This document shows positions 12,436 to 63,599 of a stretch of DNA of 63,599 bases, in pieces. The stretch covers positions 10,540,428 through 10,604,026 of the forward strand of contig NC_057748.1 in the NCBI RefSeq assembly GCF_004010195.1, written 5' to 3'. This DNA comes from Chiloscyllium plagiosum (lineage: Eukaryota). The position numbers and the translations under genes are program-made. Every line of letters starts with the position of its first letter. Position 1 is the stretch's first letter. The notes beneath the pieces were generated by a model. That model was given only the letters and a program-made list of their open reading frames with translations. It had not been told where the DNA came from and ran no database searches.

Positions 12436-12942
12436 AGGAGAGAGAGAGAGAGAGTGTGTGAGTGAGAGAGAGAGAGTGTGTGTGAGTGAGAGAGAGAGAG
12501 NNNNNNNNNNNNNNNNNNNNNNNNNNNNNNNNNNNNNNNNNNNNNNNNNNNNNNNNNNNNNNNNNNNNNNNNNNNNNNNNNNNNNNNNNNNNNNNNNNNN
12601 NNNNNNNNNNNNNNNNNNNNNNNNNNNNNNNNNNNNNNNNNNNNNNNNNNNNNNNNNNNNNNNNNNNNNNNNNNNNNNNNNNNNNNNNNNNNNNNNNNNN
12701 NNNNNNNNNNNNNNNNNNNNNNNNNNNNNNNNNNNNNNNNNNNNNNNNNNNNNNNNNNNNNNNNNNNNNNNNNNNNNNNNNNNNNNNNNNNNNNNNNNNN
12801 NNNNNNNNNNNNNNNNNNNNNNNNNNNNNNNNNNNNNNNNNNNNNNNNNNNNNNNNAGAGAGAGTGTGTGTGTGTGAGAGAGAGAGTGTGTGTGTGTGTG
12901 AGAGAGAGAGAGTGTGTGTGTGTGAGACAGAGAGAGAGAGAA
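12436..12942. repeat. (GA)n/(GT)n compound microsatellite spanning a 356-N assembly gap
   Basis: Dinucleotide repeats on both sides of the N run 12501-12856. Confidence 0.95.
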
Positions 12943-33685: not shown

Positions 33686-35059
33686 GTAATGTGTTGCATG
33701 AGACTGGAGGGGAGGTGGGGATTGTGGTGGGGAGAGTGGGGTGGGGCAATGCTTTCGGCTGAATGGGCAAGTTTTTCCTGGGCTATGGGTTTCGCCAATG
33801 GCAGCTGCCGTTGGACACAGTACTTCCCAGTAGTATGAAGCTCCGAAATGCCTGAAAAAAATCCAGTTGCCCTCCCATCTCAGGTCAGAGTGGTGCTGGA
33901 AAAGCACAGCAGGTCTGAGGAAGGGCTTTTGCTCGAAACATCAATTTTCCTGCTCCTTCGATGCTGCCTGACCTGCTCTCTCCAGACCTCATTTTCAAAA
34001 GAACAGCAGGTCAGGCAGCATCGAAGGAGCAGGAAAATTGACGTTTCGGGCAAAAGCCCTTCATCAGACCTGCTGTTCTTTTCCAGCACCACTCTCATCT
34101 TGACACTAATCTCCAGCATCTGCAGTCCTCACTTTCGCCTCCCATCACAGATTGCTCAGTGCTACCAGCCAACTGCATGACCCCTCAGCATCCATAACCC
34201 CTTGGCAACCCTGGGTGATGATCCCCGTCATATAACCACCATGCCTCAGGGCTTCACTCCTCCCTTTCCCTCTGACCCCAGCCCCTGTTTCTCACCCTCC
34301 ACCAGTTTCGCTCTTGGGCCCCATCCCACTGGTCCGACAAAGTCTCTCCTGTCAAATCAAAACTCTGCTGGAAATCGAACAGACAAATCCCGCAGAAAGA
34401 AAAGTGCCGGGAAACTCAGTGGCGACTCAGTGGAGAGAGAGAGAGAAACAGAGTTAAGTCGCAGATCAGGTAAAACTGTAGGAGCAGATTACTGCTGGAA
34501 TCTACAGTGGAACCAACAAATGCTGGAGATCACAACGGGTCAGGCAGCATCCATGGAGAGAGAGCAAGCTAATGTTTCAAGCCTCGATGACACTTCATCA
34601 GAGCTGATGATGCACATCAGCTCTGACAGTCTTCCAGACTTGTACTGTGAGCTTACTCTCCCTCCTGCCCGATCGGCTGGTGATCTCCAGCATTTGTTGT
34701 TTCTGGTAGAACTGCATTTCAGTCCTGAAGAAGAATTGCACCAGACTCAACATGAGCTGTTTCTCTCTCCAGAGCTGCTGCCAGACTTGCTGAGTTTCTC
34801 CAGCAATTTTGGAGTTTGTTGGTGATAGCGGGTCTCCCGTTTAGGTGAACGATGCTTACCAGGTATTTCTTCTATAGCCCGATGATTGTGTTCTTGTGCA
34901 GCCCTATGTTATAGAAACAGCAATTAAAGTGTTGGTGATGTGTAATTGAGTTACAGCCAACACACCACATTAAGAGTTCACGCTTTAGAAACAGTGTCCC
35001 CAATTCGTCCAATGGGCTACAGTGAATCTGTGTTAACAAAACACACATTATAACAGAAC

Positions 35060-36627: not shown

Positions 36628-37127
36628 NNNNNNNNNNNNNNNNNNNNNNNNNNNNNNNNNNNNNNNNNNNNNNNNNNNNNNNNNNNNNNNNNNNNNNNNN
36701 NNNNNNNNNNNNNNNNNNNNNNNNNNNNNNNNNNNNNNNNNNNNNNNNNNNNNNNNNNNNNNNNNNNNNNNNNNNNNNNNNNNNNNNNNNNNNNNNNNNN
36801 NNNNNNNNNNNNNNNNNNNNNNNNNNNNNNNNNNNNNNNNNNNNNNNNNNNNNNNNNNNNNNNNNNNNNNNNNNNNNNNNNNNNNNNNNNNNNNNNNNNN
36901 NNNNNNNNNNNNNNNNNNNNNNNNNNNNNNNNNNNNNNNNNNNNNNNNNNNNNNNNNNNNNNNNNNNNNNNNNNNNNNNNNNNNNNNNNNNNNNNNNNNN
37001 NNNNNNNNNNNNNNNNNNNNNNNNNNNNNNNNNNNNNNNNNNNNNNNNNNNNNNNNNNNNNNNNNNNNNNNNNNNNNNNNNNNNNNNNNNNNNNNNNNNN
37101 NNNNNNNNNNNNNNNNNNNNNNNNNNN
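36628..37127. other. Assembly gap (500 N) inside the TMEM150B-like gene
   Basis: A round 500-N run, probably a placeholder of unknown true size. Confidence 0.98.
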
Positions 37128-37984: not shown

Positions 37985-39920
37985 AGAAAAACAGAAATTT
38001 CTGGAGAAACTCAGCAGGTCTGGCAGCATCTGTGGAGAGAAATCAGAGTTAACATTTCAGCTCTAGTGATCCTTCCTCAGAACTAATGGTAGCTAGCGTA
38101 AAAGTTGTTATTTTTATGCAGAAGATAAGGTGGGGAAAGAGGTGGATGACAGCCCAAAGAGAGAGAAGAACAATTGGACAGACCAAGGAGTGGGTAACGG
38201 TCAGCCTGGGAGAATGAGTGGCCGCTAATGGGGATTGTGTAATGGGCCGTGTGTCGTAGTTGATCATGTGATAACATGGCTTAGTGTGTGGGGGTTGGGG
38301 TAAGGACATGGGAGAAAGTGCCTCAAACCCTAAAATCATTCCTGGGGATAGGCTATTCACCAATTTCCACTACAAACCAACTGACTCCCATTGTCAAGAT
38401 TAGAGTGGTGCTGGAAAAGCACAGCAAGTCAGGCAGCATCCAAGGAGCAGGAAAATCAATGTTTCAGGCAAGAGCCCTTCATCAGGAAACACTTTTGCCC
38501 AAAACATTGATTTTCCTGCTCCTTGGATGCTGCCTGACCTGCTGTGCTTTTCCAGCACCACTCTAATCTTGACTCTGATCTCCAGCATCTGCAGTACTCA
38601 CTTTTGCCTGACTCCCATAGTTACCTTGACTATACATCCTCAGACCCTACTTCCTGTAAAGACTCTATTCCATTCTCCCGGTTCCTCCATTTCTGTCAAA
38701 ACTGTTCAGATGATTCCAACTTTGACAGGAGGTCTGCGAAATGGCCATGTTCTTCCCTGACATTAGGTTCCCCAGCACCATAGTTGACTCAGCCGTCAGC
38801 CCCACACTTTGGCCCTCACCCCCTCTCTTCCCTCCCGCAACAGTGATAGGGTTTTCCCTGTCCTCACCTACCATCCCACCAACTTCCACATCCAGAGGAT
38901 CATTACTTGCCATTTCCAACACCTCCAGTGGAAGGCAACCACCAGACACATATTCCCCTCCCCTCCCCCTTCTGGAGAGACCATTCCTCCCGGACAACCT
39001 AGCCCACTCCTCCTTCACTCCCAACAGCCACCCTCATGGGCCCAGACACGCCTTCCAGATGCACTTCACTCAAACTAGTCGCCTGCATTTGCTGCTCTCA
39101 ATGTAGGCGTCGCTGTAGGTGTTTTCGACAGCGAGACAAAGTGTAGACCAGGTGACCGCTTTGCAGAACACCTACGTTCTGCCCGCAAAAATGGGTTTCC
39201 AGTTTCCTGCAACTTGAACAAGCCACCTGGCTAACATCTCTGTCCCAGGCTTGCTGCAGTGCTCCAGTGAAGCTCAGAGCAAGCTGGAAGAACAGCACCT
39301 CACTTCCTGCTCGGGAGCTGTTCTGCCTTCTGGACTCAATATCAAATTCAACAATTTTAGGGTTTGAGGCACCTGCTCCCAGGTCCTTACCCCAACCCCT
39401 AAATACCAGGCCTTATTATCACATGATCTGCTATTATGCACAACCCATTGTTAGCCACTAATAGCCGCTATTCACCCTCCCAGGCTGACCATTATCCACT
39501 CATTTGTCTGTCCACCTGTTCTTCTCTCTCTTATGTCTCTATCTCCACCAATTGTTTATTTCTTACCCCCCTCTCCTCACCCTTTCTTCTGCATAAAAAA
39601 CATTTTTTTCCTAGCTACCATCAGTTCTGAGGAAAGGTTACTGGACCTGAGACGTTAACTCTGATTTGATTTGAATTGAATTGAATTTATTGTCACATTT
39701 ACCAACGCACAGTGAAAAGCTTTGTTTTGTGAGCAATATAGACAGATCCCAGAGTTAAGTAGCATAGATAAGTAAATACTAAGTAAACAGCAGCAAAAAC
39801 AAAAACACAGGTACAGGTGTTAATAGTTTGTGAGTCCATTCAGTATTCTCTCTACAGATTTCTCTCTACAGATGCTGCCAGATCTGCTGAGCTTCTCCAG
39901 CAATTTCTATTTTTGTTTCT
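37985..39920. mobile_element. PLE with inverted pLTRs and a nested fold-back mini-element (38392-38607)
   Basis: 37985-38340 is an inverted copy of about 39350-39920. The interior has degenerate PLE ORF remnants (FPVLTYHPTNFHIQRII). Confidence 0.8.
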
Positions 39921-42900: not shown

Positions 42901-43415
42901 GATGCCTTTTAAACGTTGCAATTTTACTAGCTGCCACCACTTCTCCTGGCAGCTCATTTTAATACACACACCACCCTGTGTGAGGGCATTACCCTTTAGG
43001 CCCCTTTTATATCTTTCCCCTCTCACCCTAAACCTATGCCCCTCTAGTTCTGGGCTCTGCCACCCCAGGGAAAAGACTGTCTATTTATTCTATCTATGCC
43101 TCAATTCAGGCAAAGGGGTAGAAGAAAACTAAAAGCTTGTTTAAATTTTCTTTCCCAGATGCTAAACCTATTCCACTCCCTACCCACCCTAAAGTACCAA
43201 AGGAAAGTTTTCACCCATAGTCATGAACTCCAGGATCACTGAGAAAGAGAAAACACAACCAAGAGGAACACAGTAACCAAACTTCTCAATCAGGGAGGTC
43301 TAGTGGAATTAGCATTTCAGTCAAATCATTAGAGCATTTCCACACTTGTGACCTATGGACTATTAAAGCTAGAAGTGGCTTCAATAATGGACAATAAGCA
43401 AGATCAACAAATATC

Positions 43416-43421
43416 TTTATT
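43416..43421 (-). terminator. PolyA signal, ferritin copy 1
   Basis: AATAAA on the - strand about 130 nt after the stop codon. Confidence 0.7.
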
Positions 43422-43549
43422 TCAATTTGCACAGAACAGCAATTGGATTTGTTCTAAGTTCCTTCTTCCTGGGAAGATTTCAATAATTCCATGGGAGGCA
43501 GAAGCAATCAAACCAGGGATTACGTACATAGACCGTACCCCATGTCCCA

Positions 43550-48273
<4,724 letters not shown>

Positions 48274-48360
48274 TTTACCAATAGAGCCTTCACCAAACTA
48301 CCACCAACAAACACAACCCTATCACACACCAACTATACTCAAATCCCCTCTCCCATTGAA

Positions 48361-48500
48361 TTTATACCCCAGGAATTAAGCTGTAATTCAAAGACATCAT
48401 CAGTGATGACCAATCACTCTTGTTAATCAATTGATCAGTTGCCATGTCCAATCAGATTTGAATCAGCCCAGCATGACATTTTGGAACTCAGGAACCAATC
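48361..48500 (-). promoter_or_regulatory. Ferritin copy 1 core promoter (TATA plus clustered CCAAT boxes)
   Basis: GGGGTATAAA on the - strand (TATAAA at 48361-48366), about 88 nt above the ATG. CCAAT motifs near 48410, 48448 and 48495. Conserved in copy 2. Confidence 0.7.
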
Positions 48501-50074
48501 AGAATCAATAACTCATCGATGATGGAATTGCTGATGGACCTTTGACCTCCTTCTCAAGAGCAAACTCAGAAAGGGTCAGAACTGGAAATGACAGGAAAAT
48601 GGACGCTAATGTCAAACATACTCTAACTCCTCATTTTGACACCATGTGGGGCAGTATATGAAGAGAAGACTGAGGCAGAGTTATATTGGTTTGTAACTCT
48701 GAGGGGCATATTCCCCTAACATTCCAACAGCAGTGTTGGCAGATCAATGGAAAATAGAGCATCATTTTCAGGAAACAGTTTTCAGTTGGTATAAAACAAC
48801 TGAAATAGTATGTTTATGGGTCATCTAATAAAGACAACTGATGGTAAGTGGACAAATGATGGAACCTTCTGTGATTTCACAAGACACAGGAAGCCCCATT
48901 TATAAACCAAACCCCAGTGACCTGAGCATCTCAGCGATGTCTATGTCTATGTTCTAATCATCTTTGAACTAGTTACTGGAACCATGATGGTGCCCACCAT
49001 TGTATTACATCCATATTGAGTTATTCATGGTGTTAAGGATAACCAGAGAGTTTGTGATGAGGTATTTTCTGGCAGGTGCACATCAAATTACATTGAGTGA
49101 AAGCACAGACACTGGCCATTCAGCCCAATTGCTCTGTGCTGATGTGCACATTGAGACAATATTGTCTCCAATGGGGGGAGAGGGTGGGGGCAGAAGACGG
49201 GGATGGGCTGGTTCAGTTAGACAGGGGGCTAACTGGGTGATAGCAGTGAGGAGCCCACAGCATGGCTCTGACCTTTGTCCTGGCCATGAGAATTCATGGA
49301 GCTCCTATCTCCTCAGGCTGGTGGAGAGGTTACTCTCAAACCCCACACTAATTCTCTCTCTCCCTCACATGGAGAAAAGAGATGCCTGTGACCTTTTGTA
49401 GAGTGCAGCTGCTGACCTTATCCAGGGTCAGGATCAGTTCAGAAATTGTTTGAATTCAGTATCTCAAATATTGTTGGTGTGAAATTATACACTGAGCTCT
49501 ACCAGGCTGAGACTGGCAGGGTCAAAGGTCAGTACAGCAGGAGTGCACTGTGGGTTTGGAGTTGGGTTTTATAATTGGCCAGTCCTCACTGCTGACACCA
49601 TCTTCTTCCGGAGCTGACATGGGATGGATAGACGGCTTTGGTCAATTTGCCGGGCCCATTTCTTCATTCTGATATCAGTGGAGGTACTGAGACTGTGTGG
49701 AGAAACACCTTCCTTCAACCTCGAGCAGGAGTTAGGTAGGCGAAGGTGTTGGAATAACATGGCAGAAATACTTTTTGCCCTGGGACATTGCTACTAATGG
49801 GAATGTGGAACAGGTAAAGTATTTTCATATATTTGAAGCTCCCACTGGGATCAGTGTGCTTGTGCTGCAGGATCTATTGACACAATTGGTCCGTTGCAGA
49901 GGAGACCATTCGGCCCATCATCTGTGCCAGCTCCTTTCACAAGTTTGAACCCACAACCCCTGTCATCGCAAAGGAAGATTTTATTCTAATGGAACTTAAC
50001 TTTTACTGGCAGACCAGTCACTAATGGAGCATTGTGTCCAATTCAGGACAGTCAGACAATGGGAGTGTACTCAG

Positions 50075-52540
50075 AGAGCAGAGGTTACTGGGAAAGGAGG
50101 AACTTCTTATTTTTATTCCCATCCAACTATATTAGTCAGTGTTTTCTCAACCCGAGACCCTACCTTTGTAGGACCTCCCATCCAACCTTAAAGACCAGGG
50201 ACATATCAGGTAAGCGTCTCTTCTTTTTTACTTTGTGATAAGGGGACTAGCAGGGGTGGCAGTGCAGGGAGAGCAGTGTTCCTCCGCATGACGTTTGAGG
50301 TGAGGGATGCTATTAGTGTCCCATCCAAGTCCATCTGCAGGAAGTGCACCCAACTCTCGCTCCTCCCAGACTGTGTTAGGGAACTGGAGCGGGAGCTGGA
50401 TGAACTTCGGATCATACGGGAGACAGAGGCTGTGATAGATAGGAGTTACAGGGAAGTAGTTACACCTAGGCATAAAGAAAGCTGGGTGACTGTTCGAAGG
50501 GGGAAAAAAGAAGTCAGTGGAGGGATCCCCTGTGGTCGTTCCCCTGAAAAACATGGATACTGTTTTGGATACTGTTGAGTGGGACGACTTACCAGGGGTA
50601 TACAGTGGGGCCCAGGTCTCTGGCACAGAGCCTGTCCCTGTTGCACGGAAGGGAGGGAGGGAAAGGAGGAGAGTGTTAGTCATTGGGGACTCAATAGTTA
50701 GAGGCTCAGATAGAAGGTTTGTAGGGAACGAACGAGACCTGCAGTTGGTGTGTTGCCTCCCAGGTGCCAGGGTCCGTGATGTCTCAGATCGTATCTTTGG
50801 GGTCCTAAAGGGAGAGGGTGACCAGCCTCAAGTTGTTGTCCATGTAGGTACCAACGACATAGGTAGAAAGAGGGATAGGGATGTAAGGCAGGATTTCAGG
50901 GAGCTAGGGTGGAAGCTGAGAGCTAGAACAAACAGAGTTGTTATCTCTGGATTGTTACTTGTGCCACGTGACAGCAAGGCAAGAAATATGGAGAGATATC
51001 AGCTGAACATGTGGCTGCAAGGATGGTGCAGGAGGGAGGGTTTCAGGTTTTTGGATAACTGGAGCTCATTCTGGGGAAGGTGGGACTTGTACAAACAGGA
51101 CGGCCTTCACTTGAACCAGAGGGGTACTAATATCCTGGGTAGGAAATTTGTTGGTGCTATTCGGGTGGGTTTAAACTAGCTCAACAGGGGGATGGGAACT
51201 GGAGGTGTAGTTGCAGTGCACAGGAGAATGAGAGTAGGAAGGATAGGGACAGGATTTCAGGGTCACAGGAATGTGCTAGCAGACAGCAAAGTGGTTTGAA
51301 GTGTGTCCACTTCAATGCCAGAAGTATCTGAAATAAGGTAGGTGAGCTTGCAGCACGGATACATACCTGGGACTTCAATGAGGGTAGGGCAGTTGACGTG
51401 GTATACATGGACTTCAGTAAAGCCTTTGATAAGGTTTCACATGGTAGGCTGTTGGAGAAAATGCAGAGGCATGGAATTGAGGGTGATTTAGTAGTTTGGA
51501 TTAGAAACTGGCTTTCTGAAAGGCAGCGAGTAGTGGTTGATGGAAAATATTCAGCCTGGAGTCCGGTTACTAGTGGTGTGCCACAAGGACCTGTTTTGGA
51601 ATCACTGCTGTTTGTCATTTTTATAAAGGACTGAGACGCAGGCATAGGTGGATGGATTAGTAAGTTTGCAGATGGCACTAAAGTCGGTGGAGTAGTGGAC
51701 AGTGTGGAAGAATGTTGCAGGGGGAACTTGGATAAACTGCAGAATTGGGCTGAGAGGTGGCAAATGGAGTTCAATTCAGCTAAATGTGAGGTGATGCACT
51801 TTGGGAAGAATAATAGGAAGGCAGAGCACTGGGTCAATGGAAAGATTCTTGGTAGTGTGGATTTACAGAGGGATCTTGGAGTCCATGTACATAGATCCCT
51901 GAAAGTTGCCACCCAGGTGGATAACGCTGTTAAGGCAACATTCGGTGTTAGGTTTCATTGGTAGAGGGATTGAGTTCTGGAGCCACAAATATCATGCTGT
52001 AACTATGCAAAGCACTGGTATGGCCACACTTGGAATATTGTATACAGTTCTGGTCCCCATATTTCAGGAAGGATGTGGAAACATTGGAAAAGGTGCAGAG
52101 GAGATTTACCAGGATGTTGCCTGGTCTGCAAGTTCGTTCGTATGAGGAAAGGTTGAGAGACTTGAACCAGTTCTCATTGGCAAGGTGGCAGCTAAGAAGG
52201 GATTTGATAGAAACATATATGATTGGTGGATTAGCTAGGGTAGATAGTGAAAGTCTTTGTCCCCTACAGATGACGTCAGTGTGTACAAGGGGGCATAACT
52301 ACAAATAGAGGGGTGATAGATTTACAACAGATGTCAGAGGCAGTTTCTTTACAGAGTGGTAAGGTCATGCAATGCCCTCCCTGCTAATGTAGTCAACTCA
52401 GCCACATTAGGGAGATTTAAAGAATCCTTAGATAAGCACATGGATGATGATGGGATAGTGTAGGGGGGAAAATAATAAGCTGAGAATAGTCTACAAGTCA
52501 ATGCCACATCAAGTGCTGAAGGGCCTGTTCTGTATTGTTC
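50075..52540 (+). mobile_element. CR1 LINE with 5'UTR, ORF1 (coiled coil plus SGNH esterase) and internally deleted ORF2; 7-bp TSD
   Basis: ORF1 motifs CRKC...VRELERELDELR, GDSIVRG, HVGTND and DGLHLN. RT motif MDFSKAFDKV. TACTCAG at 50068-50074 and 52541-52547; the empty site is visible in the paralogous unit near 61912. Confidence 0.93.
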
Positions 52541-53956
52541 TACTCAGCATTGCCTAGGCAAAGAAGTGAAAAATTTTATTGTTTTAAACCATTTGCTATG
52601 ACTGGTCCACACTGGCCCCCACGTACTGTGAGGTGGTGGGGTATATCAGGTGTAGAATGCAGGAGGAGGCTGTAGTTACAGCCCAGGAATAGATAAGTAA
52701 TAAATGTTAGGCAGAACATGTGGTTGTTGAGTGAAAGTGGTAGTTGTAGTGAAAGAAAGTGATATTGCGCCAATGCTCTGGGAAGGATTCCAGAGTTGGA
52801 GTGAGATGAGGAGGAACTGCCTGTTGAACAGATGATTTGAGTAACTCAAGTCACTCGTTAGTGATAGATGTTTCGTGCAGGACCGAAACAAACAAACATT
52901 TACTCCAACTTGTCTACGCTGACCAGATAGCCTAAATAAACCTAGTCCTATTTACCAGCAGTTGGCCCACATCCTTTCCACTTCACTTACCTAGTCAGAT
53001 GCCTTTTAAGTGTTGTAATTATACCAGCCTCCACTTCCTCTGGCAACTCATTCCACACAATCTGAGAAAAAGTTGCCCTATGGGCCCCTTTCAAATCTTT
53101 CCCCCTCACCCTAAATATATAGGCTCTAGTTTAGAACTCTCCCACCAGAAGAAAGTGACCTGACTATTCACATGCTCATGATATTATCAACCTGAGACAG
53201 CCTCAGCCTATTTGGCCTCTCCCCAGAGCTCAAGCCTTTTCCTGAACCCTGTCAAGTTTCAGGGAGACCAGTATGGCCCACAATAGTCGGTAAGAAAGTT
53301 CTGTGGCCTATCCATACCAGCCCTGCAAGAGGAGCAGCTCACTTCATGGATCAGTTCAGTAACCCTGTGCATTATGAATATGAAACTACAGCCTAAAGCT
53401 GCTTCTAAAGAGCCTAGATAGAGCCCCCCCCCCACTCTAGAGGATTCAGAATTGGATTGAACTATTGTTTGCTGCAAATCCACTGTATGGAACCGACTTC
53501 CTCAACAAGAGGATGGACAACATCAAGGGCAAGGTAGGATTAGGGTATTGTTACAGAACAGGTGGGTGTAATCTCTTTTGAGAATGCTTGGGGAAAAAAA
53601 AATCTATTCCAAAATCAAATGGGCAACAGGGACAGCATAGGTGGTATGGGAACAGTTGGTTTTGTCATGGAATACACAATTCAGGCTGTTTTCATCACCT
53701 GACCTCCCCATTGCTGAGGGGAATGTCAGATTAAGACTGCAGTATCTTACACCTGCCATTCTCATGGAAGAGCTACAATCGTGACTCTAAGGAATGGAAT
53801 AAAGAGCACAAAACCCTCAAATCATGAGCTCCAGTGTAATCATTGTTGGAACTGGATGGGCTAGAGATTGTTCTGGAACAGATTCCAAACCTTAAGATAT
53901 AAAAAGGTGAAAATTAAAGCCAGTGATTAGAACAGAGTAGGTGAGATCAGATGATC

Positions 53957-53962: not shown

Positions 53963-54064
53963 TTAACTGAAGAATGGATGGGAAAAGTTCCTGCTTCCTG
54001 GAGAAATTCTCCCAATGAGAGTTGGATACAAACAGACAAAGACTGCAGTCAGTCAGAGGCCCCA

Positions 54065-60126
<6,062 letters not shown>

Positions 60127-60185
60127 TTTCCCAATAGAACCTTCTAACTACAACCAACTATACTCAAATCCCCTCTCCCATCGAA

Positions 60186-60330
60186 TTTATACCCCAGGCA
60201 TTAAGCTGTAATTCAATGACATCATCAGTGATGATCATCAATCAATCTCGTTAATCAATTGATCAGCTGCCACGTCCAATCAGATTTGAATAAGCCCAGG
60301 ATGACATTTTAGAACTCAGTAACCAATCAG
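60186..60330 (-). promoter_or_regulatory. Ferritin copy 2 core promoter (TATA plus CCAAT boxes)
   Basis: TATAAA at 60186-60191, about 60 nt above the ATG. CCAAT near 60276 and 60323. Confidence 0.7.
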
Positions 60331-63344: not shown

Positions 63345-63440
63345 TCCCATTTGTTTCTTCAGTACAAGTTCCTGCTTTCTGGAGAAATTCTCCCAAGGAG
63401 TTGGATACAAAACAGGCAAAGACCACAGTCAAAGTCCCCA

Positions 63441-63599
<159 letters not shown>

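What the first reader, a model, noticed from the sequence alone, without database searches (positions are those of the whole stretch)
48274..48366. Ferritin genes without an iron-responsive element
Seen: TATAAA lies only about 88 nt (copy 1) and 60 nt (copy 2) above the ATG, implying leaders of roughly 60 and 30 nt. Neither leader contains a CAGUGN loop or an IRE-like stem; both are G/U-rich. Established: cytosolic vertebrate H, L and M ferritin mRNAs normally carry a cap-proximal IRE bound by IRP1/2. Inference: this array is uncoupled from IRP translational control and regulated by transcription and gene dosage, which fits a tissue-specific bulk protein.
Basis: partly seen in the sequence, partly recalled or inferred. 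Interest (0 to 1): 0.72.

Follow-up and report, generated by a model that had tools for sequence, protein, structure and literature searches.

The report
Shark ferritin array lacking iron switch
These are intact, tandemly repeated shark iron-storage (ferritin) genes that lack the RNA switch normally tying ferritin production to iron levels; they most likely belong to a large egg-cell ferritin cluster already reported in other sharks, and switch-less reproductive ferritins are known elsewhere.

Summary
Observation confirmed. Two intact four-exon ferritin genes (minus strand, 176 aa) and the last exon of a third form a tandem array in a carpet shark. TATAAA lies 87 and 59 nt above the ATGs; the leaders hold 2-3 cytosines and no IRE loop. 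No IRE exists anywhere in the window: a custom model scores at most 9 bits here against 23-41 bits in 14 of 30 held-out ferritin loci, so no upstream exon inside the window can supply one. The start site is unmapped, and one related-species contig has about 69 upstream letters that did not lay on this leader. The genes belong to a shark clade with Lys at the ferroxidase ligand Glu62, sister to an amplified clade with an intact centre. A preprint reports hundreds of ferritin copies with ovary-specific expression in Greenland shark but does not mention IREs. Best reading: an oocyte-type, transcription- and dosage-driven, probably ferroxidase-dead subunit that co-assembles with active paralogues to stock eggs with iron. 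IRE-less reproductive ferritins are known (snail yolk ferritin), so this is a new vertebrate variant, not a new principle.

The parts
48361..48366 (-). TATAAA, copy 1 (predicted core promoter)
   Evidence: flanks conserved in copy 2; use not shown
48274..48341 (-). Predicted 5' leader of copy 1 (61-68 nt, G/U-rich, 2 C, no IRE)
   Evidence: start inferred from TATA spacing
48410..48499 (-). Three reverse CCAAT (ATTGG) boxes starting at 48499, 48452, 48414, and an E-box at 48441
   Evidence: 0.124 such NF-Y-like sites expected per 200 nt; the two distal boxes are kept in copy 2
48172..48273 (-). Copy 1 exon 1 coding part
45208..45354 (-). Copy 1 exon 2; encodes Lys59 (H-chain Glu62 position)
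   Evidence: spliced contigs
44777..44902 (-). Copy 1 exon 3
   Evidence: joints 44902-45208 and 43705-44777
43550..43705 (-). Copy 1 exon 4 to stop; encodes Glu138 (H-chain Gln141 position)
43416..43421 (-). AATAAA after copy 1
60186..60191 (-). TATAAA, copy 2
60127..60166 (-). Predicted 5' leader of copy 2 (33-40 nt, 1 C, no IRE; 28 nt shorter than copy 1 in the G/T-rich part)
60264..60327 (-). Two reverse CCAAT boxes (60327, 60280) and an E-box (60269), copy 2
60025..60126 (-). Copy 2 exon 1 coding part
55367..55513 (-). Copy 2 exon 2
54904..55029 (-). Copy 2 exon 3
54065..54220 (-). Copy 2 exon 4 to stop
63441..63596 (-). Exon 4 of a third copy; the rest lies beyond the window end
   Evidence: 1 and 2 nt from copies 1 and 2

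Best explanation
Copies 1-3 are functional members of an old, shark-wide ferritin array. A proximal CCAAT/CCAAT/E-box/TATA promoter (inferred) gives a 35-65 nt leader with no IRE (absence shown; leader length inferred), so IRP1/2 cannot repress the mRNA and output is set by transcription and copy number (inferred). The likely site is the oocyte, where protein must be stockpiled ahead of iron supply (inferred from the Greenland shark cluster). The subunit has Lys at the ferroxidase ligand Glu62 and Glu at Gln141 (shown), so it is probably ferroxidase-dead (inferred) and most likely co-assembles with the intact-centre paralogues amplified on the same chromosome, as L does with H, to form the egg's iron store. 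Somatic iron buffering would fall to a separate low-copy paralogue, presumed to keep its IRE (not seen).
For: IRE absence with working controls. Intact genes with canonical splice sites, 8 synonymous against 3 non-synonymous changes between copies (pN/pS about 0.1, Fisher p 0.0003). Spliced array-type contigs in 3 of 3 contig runs laid (depth 15.2, 52.3, 2.6), against depth 17531 for a different paralogue in X1 (depth is a poor measure and tissues are unknown). No AG within 150 nt above either ATG has a pyrimidine tract like the real acceptors (at most 0.53 against 0.65-0.94). Lys59 in 38 of 38 aligned proteins at 78% identity or more, Glu in 110 of the other 117; Lys59 clade SH-aLRT 99, sister (83) to a 32-row intact-centre clade. 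Both types share a longest-contig length in seven shark species. Greenland and white shark: 155 'FTL' and 179 'FTH1' copies, ovary-specific cluster. E62K is said to suffice to abolish ferroxidase activity in germ-cell FTHL17. Snail yolk ferritin lacks an IRE.
Against: No start-site data. In run X3 a 475-nt array-type contig has 171 letters beyond exon 2, by inference exon 1 plus about 69 upstream letters, yet X3 depth at 48294-48520 is 0: a diverged leader of another copy or species fits, a different first exon is not excluded. No ovary sample was identified here; no Greenland shark protein was among my hits, so tying this clade to the preprint's cluster is inference through white shark. The tree is the quick version, holds no mammalian L chain, and the sister link is weakly supported. 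Only two leaders were seen, both of the Lys59 type. The low-copy paralogue's IRE was not seen. An IRE fits in a leader of about 75-100 nt in an oyster, so shortness alone proves nothing. Co-assembly was not tested.
Confidence: 0.66

Rival explanations
1. IRE-less and germ-line, but not an iron store: the Lys59 subunit works like mammalian FTHL17 or an apoferritin bulk protein (structural, amino-acid reserve, nuclear or protective role), and the IRE was lost because iron control no longer mattered.
For: Lys at Glu62 as in FTHL17. Nearly all atypical invertebrate ferritins lack an IRE. Only two of the four carboxylates recalled for the L-chain nucleation site are present (Ala54, Gln57, Glu58, Glu61).
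Against: Three-fold channel residues Asp128 and Glu131 and five other centre residues are kept; intact-centre paralogues are co-amplified beside them.
Confidence: 0.17
2. IRE-less bulk ferritin of another tissue (epigonal organ, blood cells, testis, embryo, egg-case gland) rather than the oocyte.
For: Array-type spliced contigs occur in three runs of unknown tissue. A shark 'ovary' sample can include epigonal tissue (recalled).
Against: The cluster was called ovary-specific in a data set whose figure legend lists eight tissues; array-type sequence was rare beside the low-copy paralogue where that comparison was possible (X1, X10).
Confidence: 0.1
3. The real transcript starts elsewhere and is still iron-controlled, through a first exon outside the window or a non-canonical IRP site.
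For: The unexplained upstream letters of the X3 contig; TATAAA is common.
Against: No IRE between either ATG and the next gene upstream; no good acceptor above the ATG; a distal start would include an out-of-frame five-codon upstream ORF.
Confidence: 0.05
4. The copies are decaying by-products of array turnover and the missing IRE has no meaning.
For: Several database paralogues are truncated or mis-joined models.
Against: Open frames, purifying selection, Lys59 clade kept across distant sharks, upstream DNA 92-95% alike between copies against 83-90% in introns.
Confidence: 0.02

Closest known systems
Shark ferritin cluster of Greenland and great white shark (bioRxiv 10.1101/2024.09.09.611499; passages read)
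   Same: Large tandem ferritin expansion in sharks, two labelled subunit types, mostly full length, ovary-specific expression.
   Different: The word IRE does not occur in its main text, and its one ferritin passage gives no promoter or ferroxidase-site analysis. It states at least 90% identity to human orthologues, whereas copy 1 is 64-70% identical to the H-type chains of bony vertebrates in my alignment. That its 'FTL' class is the Lys59 clade is my inference.
Snail yolk ferritin of Lymnaea and Biomphalaria (PMC10799875; passages)
   Same: Reproductive bulk ferritin whose 5' UTR has no IRE.
   Different: Secreted, with signal peptide and a 42-residue insertion. The shark protein is 176 aa, aligns without gaps to frog M ferritin from residue 1 and has neither.
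Mammalian FTHL17 and FTMT (PMC7760355; passages)
   Same: FTHL17: germ-cell expression, Glu62Lys, six genes in mouse. FTMT: not regulated by IRE/IRP.
   Different: FTMT is mitochondrial with an intact centre and comes from an intronless gene (title of a cited reference). The shark genes keep three introns and fall in a shark-only clade. The IRE status of FTHL17 was not in the passages read.
Canonical cytosolic vertebrate H, M and L ferritins with a 5' IRE (Rfam RF00037)
   Same: Fold family (Pfam PF00210), four-exon layout, best solved match frog M ferritin (E 1e-83).
   Different: Control vertebrate-type mRNAs carry an IRE 146-237 nt above the ATG; these genes have none, and the centre has Lys59 and Glu138.

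Membership tests
Animal cytosolic ferritin (PF00210) | Full-length ferritin domain without signal or targeting peptide | tested here: met
IRE-regulated H/M/L ferritin mRNA | 5' UTR stem-loop with CAGUGN loop and C bulge | tested here: not met
   controls 40, 44, 56
IRE-regulated H/M/L ferritin mRNA | IRP1/2 binding and iron-dependent translation | not testable with these tools
   needs gel shift and polysome or reporter assay
H/M-type (ferroxidase-active) subunit | Glu27, Tyr34, Glu61, Glu62, His65, Glu107, Gln141 (H numbering, recalled) | tested here: not met
   five kept; Glu62 is Lys and Gln141 is Glu
L-type subunit | Ferroxidase centre disabled | tested here: inconclusive
   Lys at 62 present; activity not measured
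L-type subunit | Cavity nucleation carboxylates (four Glu, positions recalled) | tested here: not met
   Ala54, Gln57, Glu58, Glu61
L-type subunit | Orthology with tetrapod FTL | tested here: inconclusive
   clade is shark-only and apart from frog L, but that branch is long, the tree is quick and no mammalian L was included
Molluscan yolk ferritin | Signal peptide and 42-residue insertion | tested here: not met
Molluscan yolk ferritin | No IRE in the 5' UTR | tested here: met
Shark ovary ferritin cluster | Tandem, full-length, many copies on one chromosome | tested here: met
   three copies in 20 kb; many paralogues per species
Shark ovary ferritin cluster | Ovary-specific expression | tested here: inconclusive
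   runs laid have no tissue label; ovary statement comes from the preprint

The most novel reading that the evidence does not exclude
Sharks built their own two-subunit ferritin system for the egg: an active (Glu62) and an inactive (Lys62) subunit arose by duplication before distant shark lineages split, both shed the IRE, both were amplified to tens or hundreds of copies under an oocyte promoter, and together they form a maternal iron store that re-invents the H/L division of labour independently of tetrapod L ferritin.
Probability: 0.35. Interest if true: 0.68.

Novelty: new variant of a known kind. Interest (0 to 1): 0.42.

Why it matters
It gives a regulatory and biochemical reading of a reported but unexplained gene expansion. 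If the shark ferritin array is IRE-free, oocyte-driven and partly ferroxidase-dead, it speaks to maternal iron supply for very large yolky eggs rather than to somatic iron control, which matters because ferroptosis has been linked to Greenland shark longevity. It would also be an intron-containing vertebrate case of IRE loss coupled to ferroxidase loss, a pairing reported for invertebrate atypical ferritins.

Tried and rejected
No genome is held for this window, so other array copies and the low-copy paralogue's 5' region could not be read. No RNA holder listed on record; the small-share runs were laid instead. One search listed no pile-up of molecule ends; X10 had mean depth 0.56 in 48294-48520, too little to place a start. 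A decayed IRE above the TATA box: one of four local alignments scored high (copy 1, 48466-48438, 2 of 500 shuffles), but it overlaps a CCAAT box, has no CAGUG loop and is not repeated in copy 2 (163 and 365 of 500) or with the second probe (236 of 500), so rejected. A palindrome just above TATA (about 48391-48375, seen by eye) has the wrong loop, is broken in copy 2 and lies outside the predicted transcript: rejected. Eight loose IRE-like patterns on the minus strand have non-canonical loops or fold otherwise; none is in a leader (one lies in intron 1). The careful tree did not finish. The paper search for CCAAT-driven oocyte promoters gave only a listing and nothing was read, so the likeness to fish zona pellucida promoters is recalled and untested. 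PMC5568229 timed out. PMC3944790, PMC1488847 and PMC11719527 gave background only. Earlier-finding look-ups gave nothing relevant. No structure or complex prediction was run; a model would not settle catalytic activity.

Full report
What is there. The coordinates cover the stretch between a TATAAA and the ATG of a minus-strand ferritin gene. Self-comparison and exon mapping give two complete four-exon genes (ATG at 48273 and 60126) and the last exon of a third at the window end. Both complete genes encode 176 residues with GT-AG introns and differ at 11 of 531 bases, 8 synonymous and 3 not (pS 0.071, pN 0.007, Fisher p 0.0003). The nearest named proteins are from Chiloscyllium (up to 99%), Hemiscyllium and Stegostoma, so the window is from a carpet shark. 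No genome is held for it.

The observation. TATAAA ends 87 and 59 nt above the ATGs. Those stretches contain 3 and 2 cytosines and no CAGWGN, and the predicted leaders fold no better than shuffles. Rfam gives nothing at gathering score in the window and no IRE at E up to 10 in 40000-63599. To show the test can succeed I fetched 37 ferritin loci from metagenome contigs. Rfam found IRE_I in 4 of the 20 given at gathering score and 4 weaker ones among 17 given in E-value mode. A model built from seven of these IREs scored 23-41 bits in 14 of the other 30 loci (several are near-identical to training rows, and many of the 16 misses are partial or genomic) but at most 9.0 bits anywhere in the window on either strand. 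A pattern scan found an IRE in 11 of 25 control 5' regions and none in the 5791 and 3314 nt that reach from each ATG to the stop codon of the gene upstream. That region has no gaps. An IRE-bearing upstream exon would therefore have to lie beyond a neighbouring paralogue.

Is the TATA box the promoter? Not shown. For it: conserved flanks; two ATTGG boxes kept at 133/86 and 136/89 nt above TATA, with a third in copy 1, against 0.124 such sites expected per 200 nt; upstream DNA 92-95% alike between copies against 83-90% in introns; no AG above the ATG with a real pyrimidine tract; and an out-of-frame five-codon ORF starting just below TATA that a distal start would include. Against it: TATAAA occurs 0.51 times per kb, the copies are not independent, and one RNA result is unexplained. 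In one search four runs of related or same-label organisms were laid on copy 1 only (43300-50100). Three contig runs gave spliced array-type pieces with the predicted joints (depth 15.2, 52.3, 2.6). The X3 contig has 171 letters beyond exon 2, by my inference 102 of exon 1 and about 69 upstream. That length matches the predicted 61-68 nt, but X3 depth at 48294-48520 is 0, so those letters did not lay on this leader. A diverged G/T-rich leader is plausible, since copies 1 and 2 already differ there by 28 nt; another first exon is not excluded. Contigs cannot show starts.

What kind of ferritin. Against frog M and H chains the centre keeps Glu24, Tyr31, Glu58, His62 and Glu104 but has Lys59 (H-chain Glu62) and Glu138 (Gln141); the channel residues Asp128 and Glu131 are kept (H numbering recalled). 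Of 216 proteins held, 155 of 160-190 aa were aligned: Lys59 is in 31 of 31 at 90% identity or more and 7 of 7 at 78-90%, while 110 of the other 117 have Glu; Glu138 is in 31 of 31, 1 of 7 and 2 of 117. In a quick tree of 74 rows the two copies sit in a 12-row Lys59 clade (SH-aLRT 99) with Heptranchias, Mustelus, Cetorhinus, Carcharodon and carpet sharks, sister (83) to a 32-row clade with a mostly intact centre; a separate five-row shark clade (99) looks low-copy. Cluster sizes, pooled over species, are 76, 45 and 43 for Lys59 types and 127, 180 and 138 for intact types. In X1 a paralogue whose first ten residues match the low-copy P0208 has depth 17531 against 15 for the array type; in the raw run X10 the loose ends with 265 and 149 reads translate by hand to P0208-type sequence, while 1 of 31 and 0 of 15 reads at 48247 carry the array letter. 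Tissues are unknown and depth is a poor measure.

What is in print. A Greenland shark genome preprint (10.1101/2024.09.09.611499; passages only, supplements not seen) reports 155 'FTL' and 179 'FTH1' copies, clusters syntenic with white shark, and ovary-specific expression of the largest; 'IRE' does not occur in its main text. Snail yolk ferritin lacks an IRE (PMC10799875, passages). FTMT is not IRE-regulated, and germ-cell FTHL17 has Glu62Lys, said to suffice to abolish ferroxidase activity (PMC7760355, passages). Nearly all atypical invertebrate ferritins lack an IRE (PMC8395497, passages). Ferritin mRNA is abundant in vertebrate ovaries (PMC1488847, passages). Ten searches showed no paper on IRE loss or the Lys62 clade in shark ferritins; the library lacks most subscription journals, and most listed papers were not opened.

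How it most likely works. Shown: intact genes, tandem array, no IRE in the window, Lys59 and Glu138, spliced transcripts in relatives. Inferred: a proximal CCAAT/TATA promoter and short leader; no IRP repression; output set by transcription and dosage; oocyte expression; loss of ferroxidase activity; co-assembly with the active paralogues into an egg iron store. I put 0.66 on the whole chain and about 0.93 on the mRNAs lacking a canonical IRE. The main rival (0.17) is an FTHL17-like role not tied to iron storage.

Verdict. It belongs to a known kind, IRE-less reproductive ferritin, and to an array already reported. What I did not find in print is the IRE loss in that array and its pairing with a shark-wide Lys62 subunit class. 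Interest 0.42; 0.68 if both classes prove IRE-free and form an independent H/L-like egg ferritin.

Noticed in passing
window 45208-45354 and 55367-55513 (exon 2); 43550-43705 (exon 4): Glu62Lys is shared by a clade found across distant sharks; Gln141Glu is nearly confined to carpet sharks. Solved frog M variants with Glu at that second position exist (3ka6, 3ka9).
   Followed up: partly
window about 50073-52568: LINE-like insertion upstream of copy 1 only, with a GDSL-esterase ORF (50490-51179) and a reverse transcriptase fragment (51332-51634); absent from the matching spacer above copy 2.
   Followed up: partly
window 56237-57541: Head-to-tail 653-nt duplication (98% alike) of a LINE-like fragment in intron 1 of copy 2; recent duplication or assembly artefact.
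   Followed up: no
window 59156-59428: About 140-nt tandem duplication in intron 1 of copy 2.
   Followed up: no
window 43546-43732, 54061-54247, 63437-63599: Exon 4 is 98-99% identical among three copies while the 3' UTRs of copies 1 and 2 are 76% alike: strong selection or exon-limited gene conversion.
   Followed up: partly
window 33839-33980 and 38393-38573: Inverted pairs of a short interspersed repeat forming near-palindromes.
   Followed up: no
window 1-43400: No further ferritin exon 1; by eye mostly repeat remnants and two N gaps (12501-12856, 36628-37127), so copy 1 may be the end of this array segment. Only four ORFs here were scanned against Pfam, with no hit.
   Followed up: partly
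L027:1392-1427, L035:1027-1062, L036:134-169, L037:225-260: IRE-like hits (31-38 bits) in control loci; in L035-L037 they lie 0.4-1.4 kb above the matched coding stretch.
   Followed up: no
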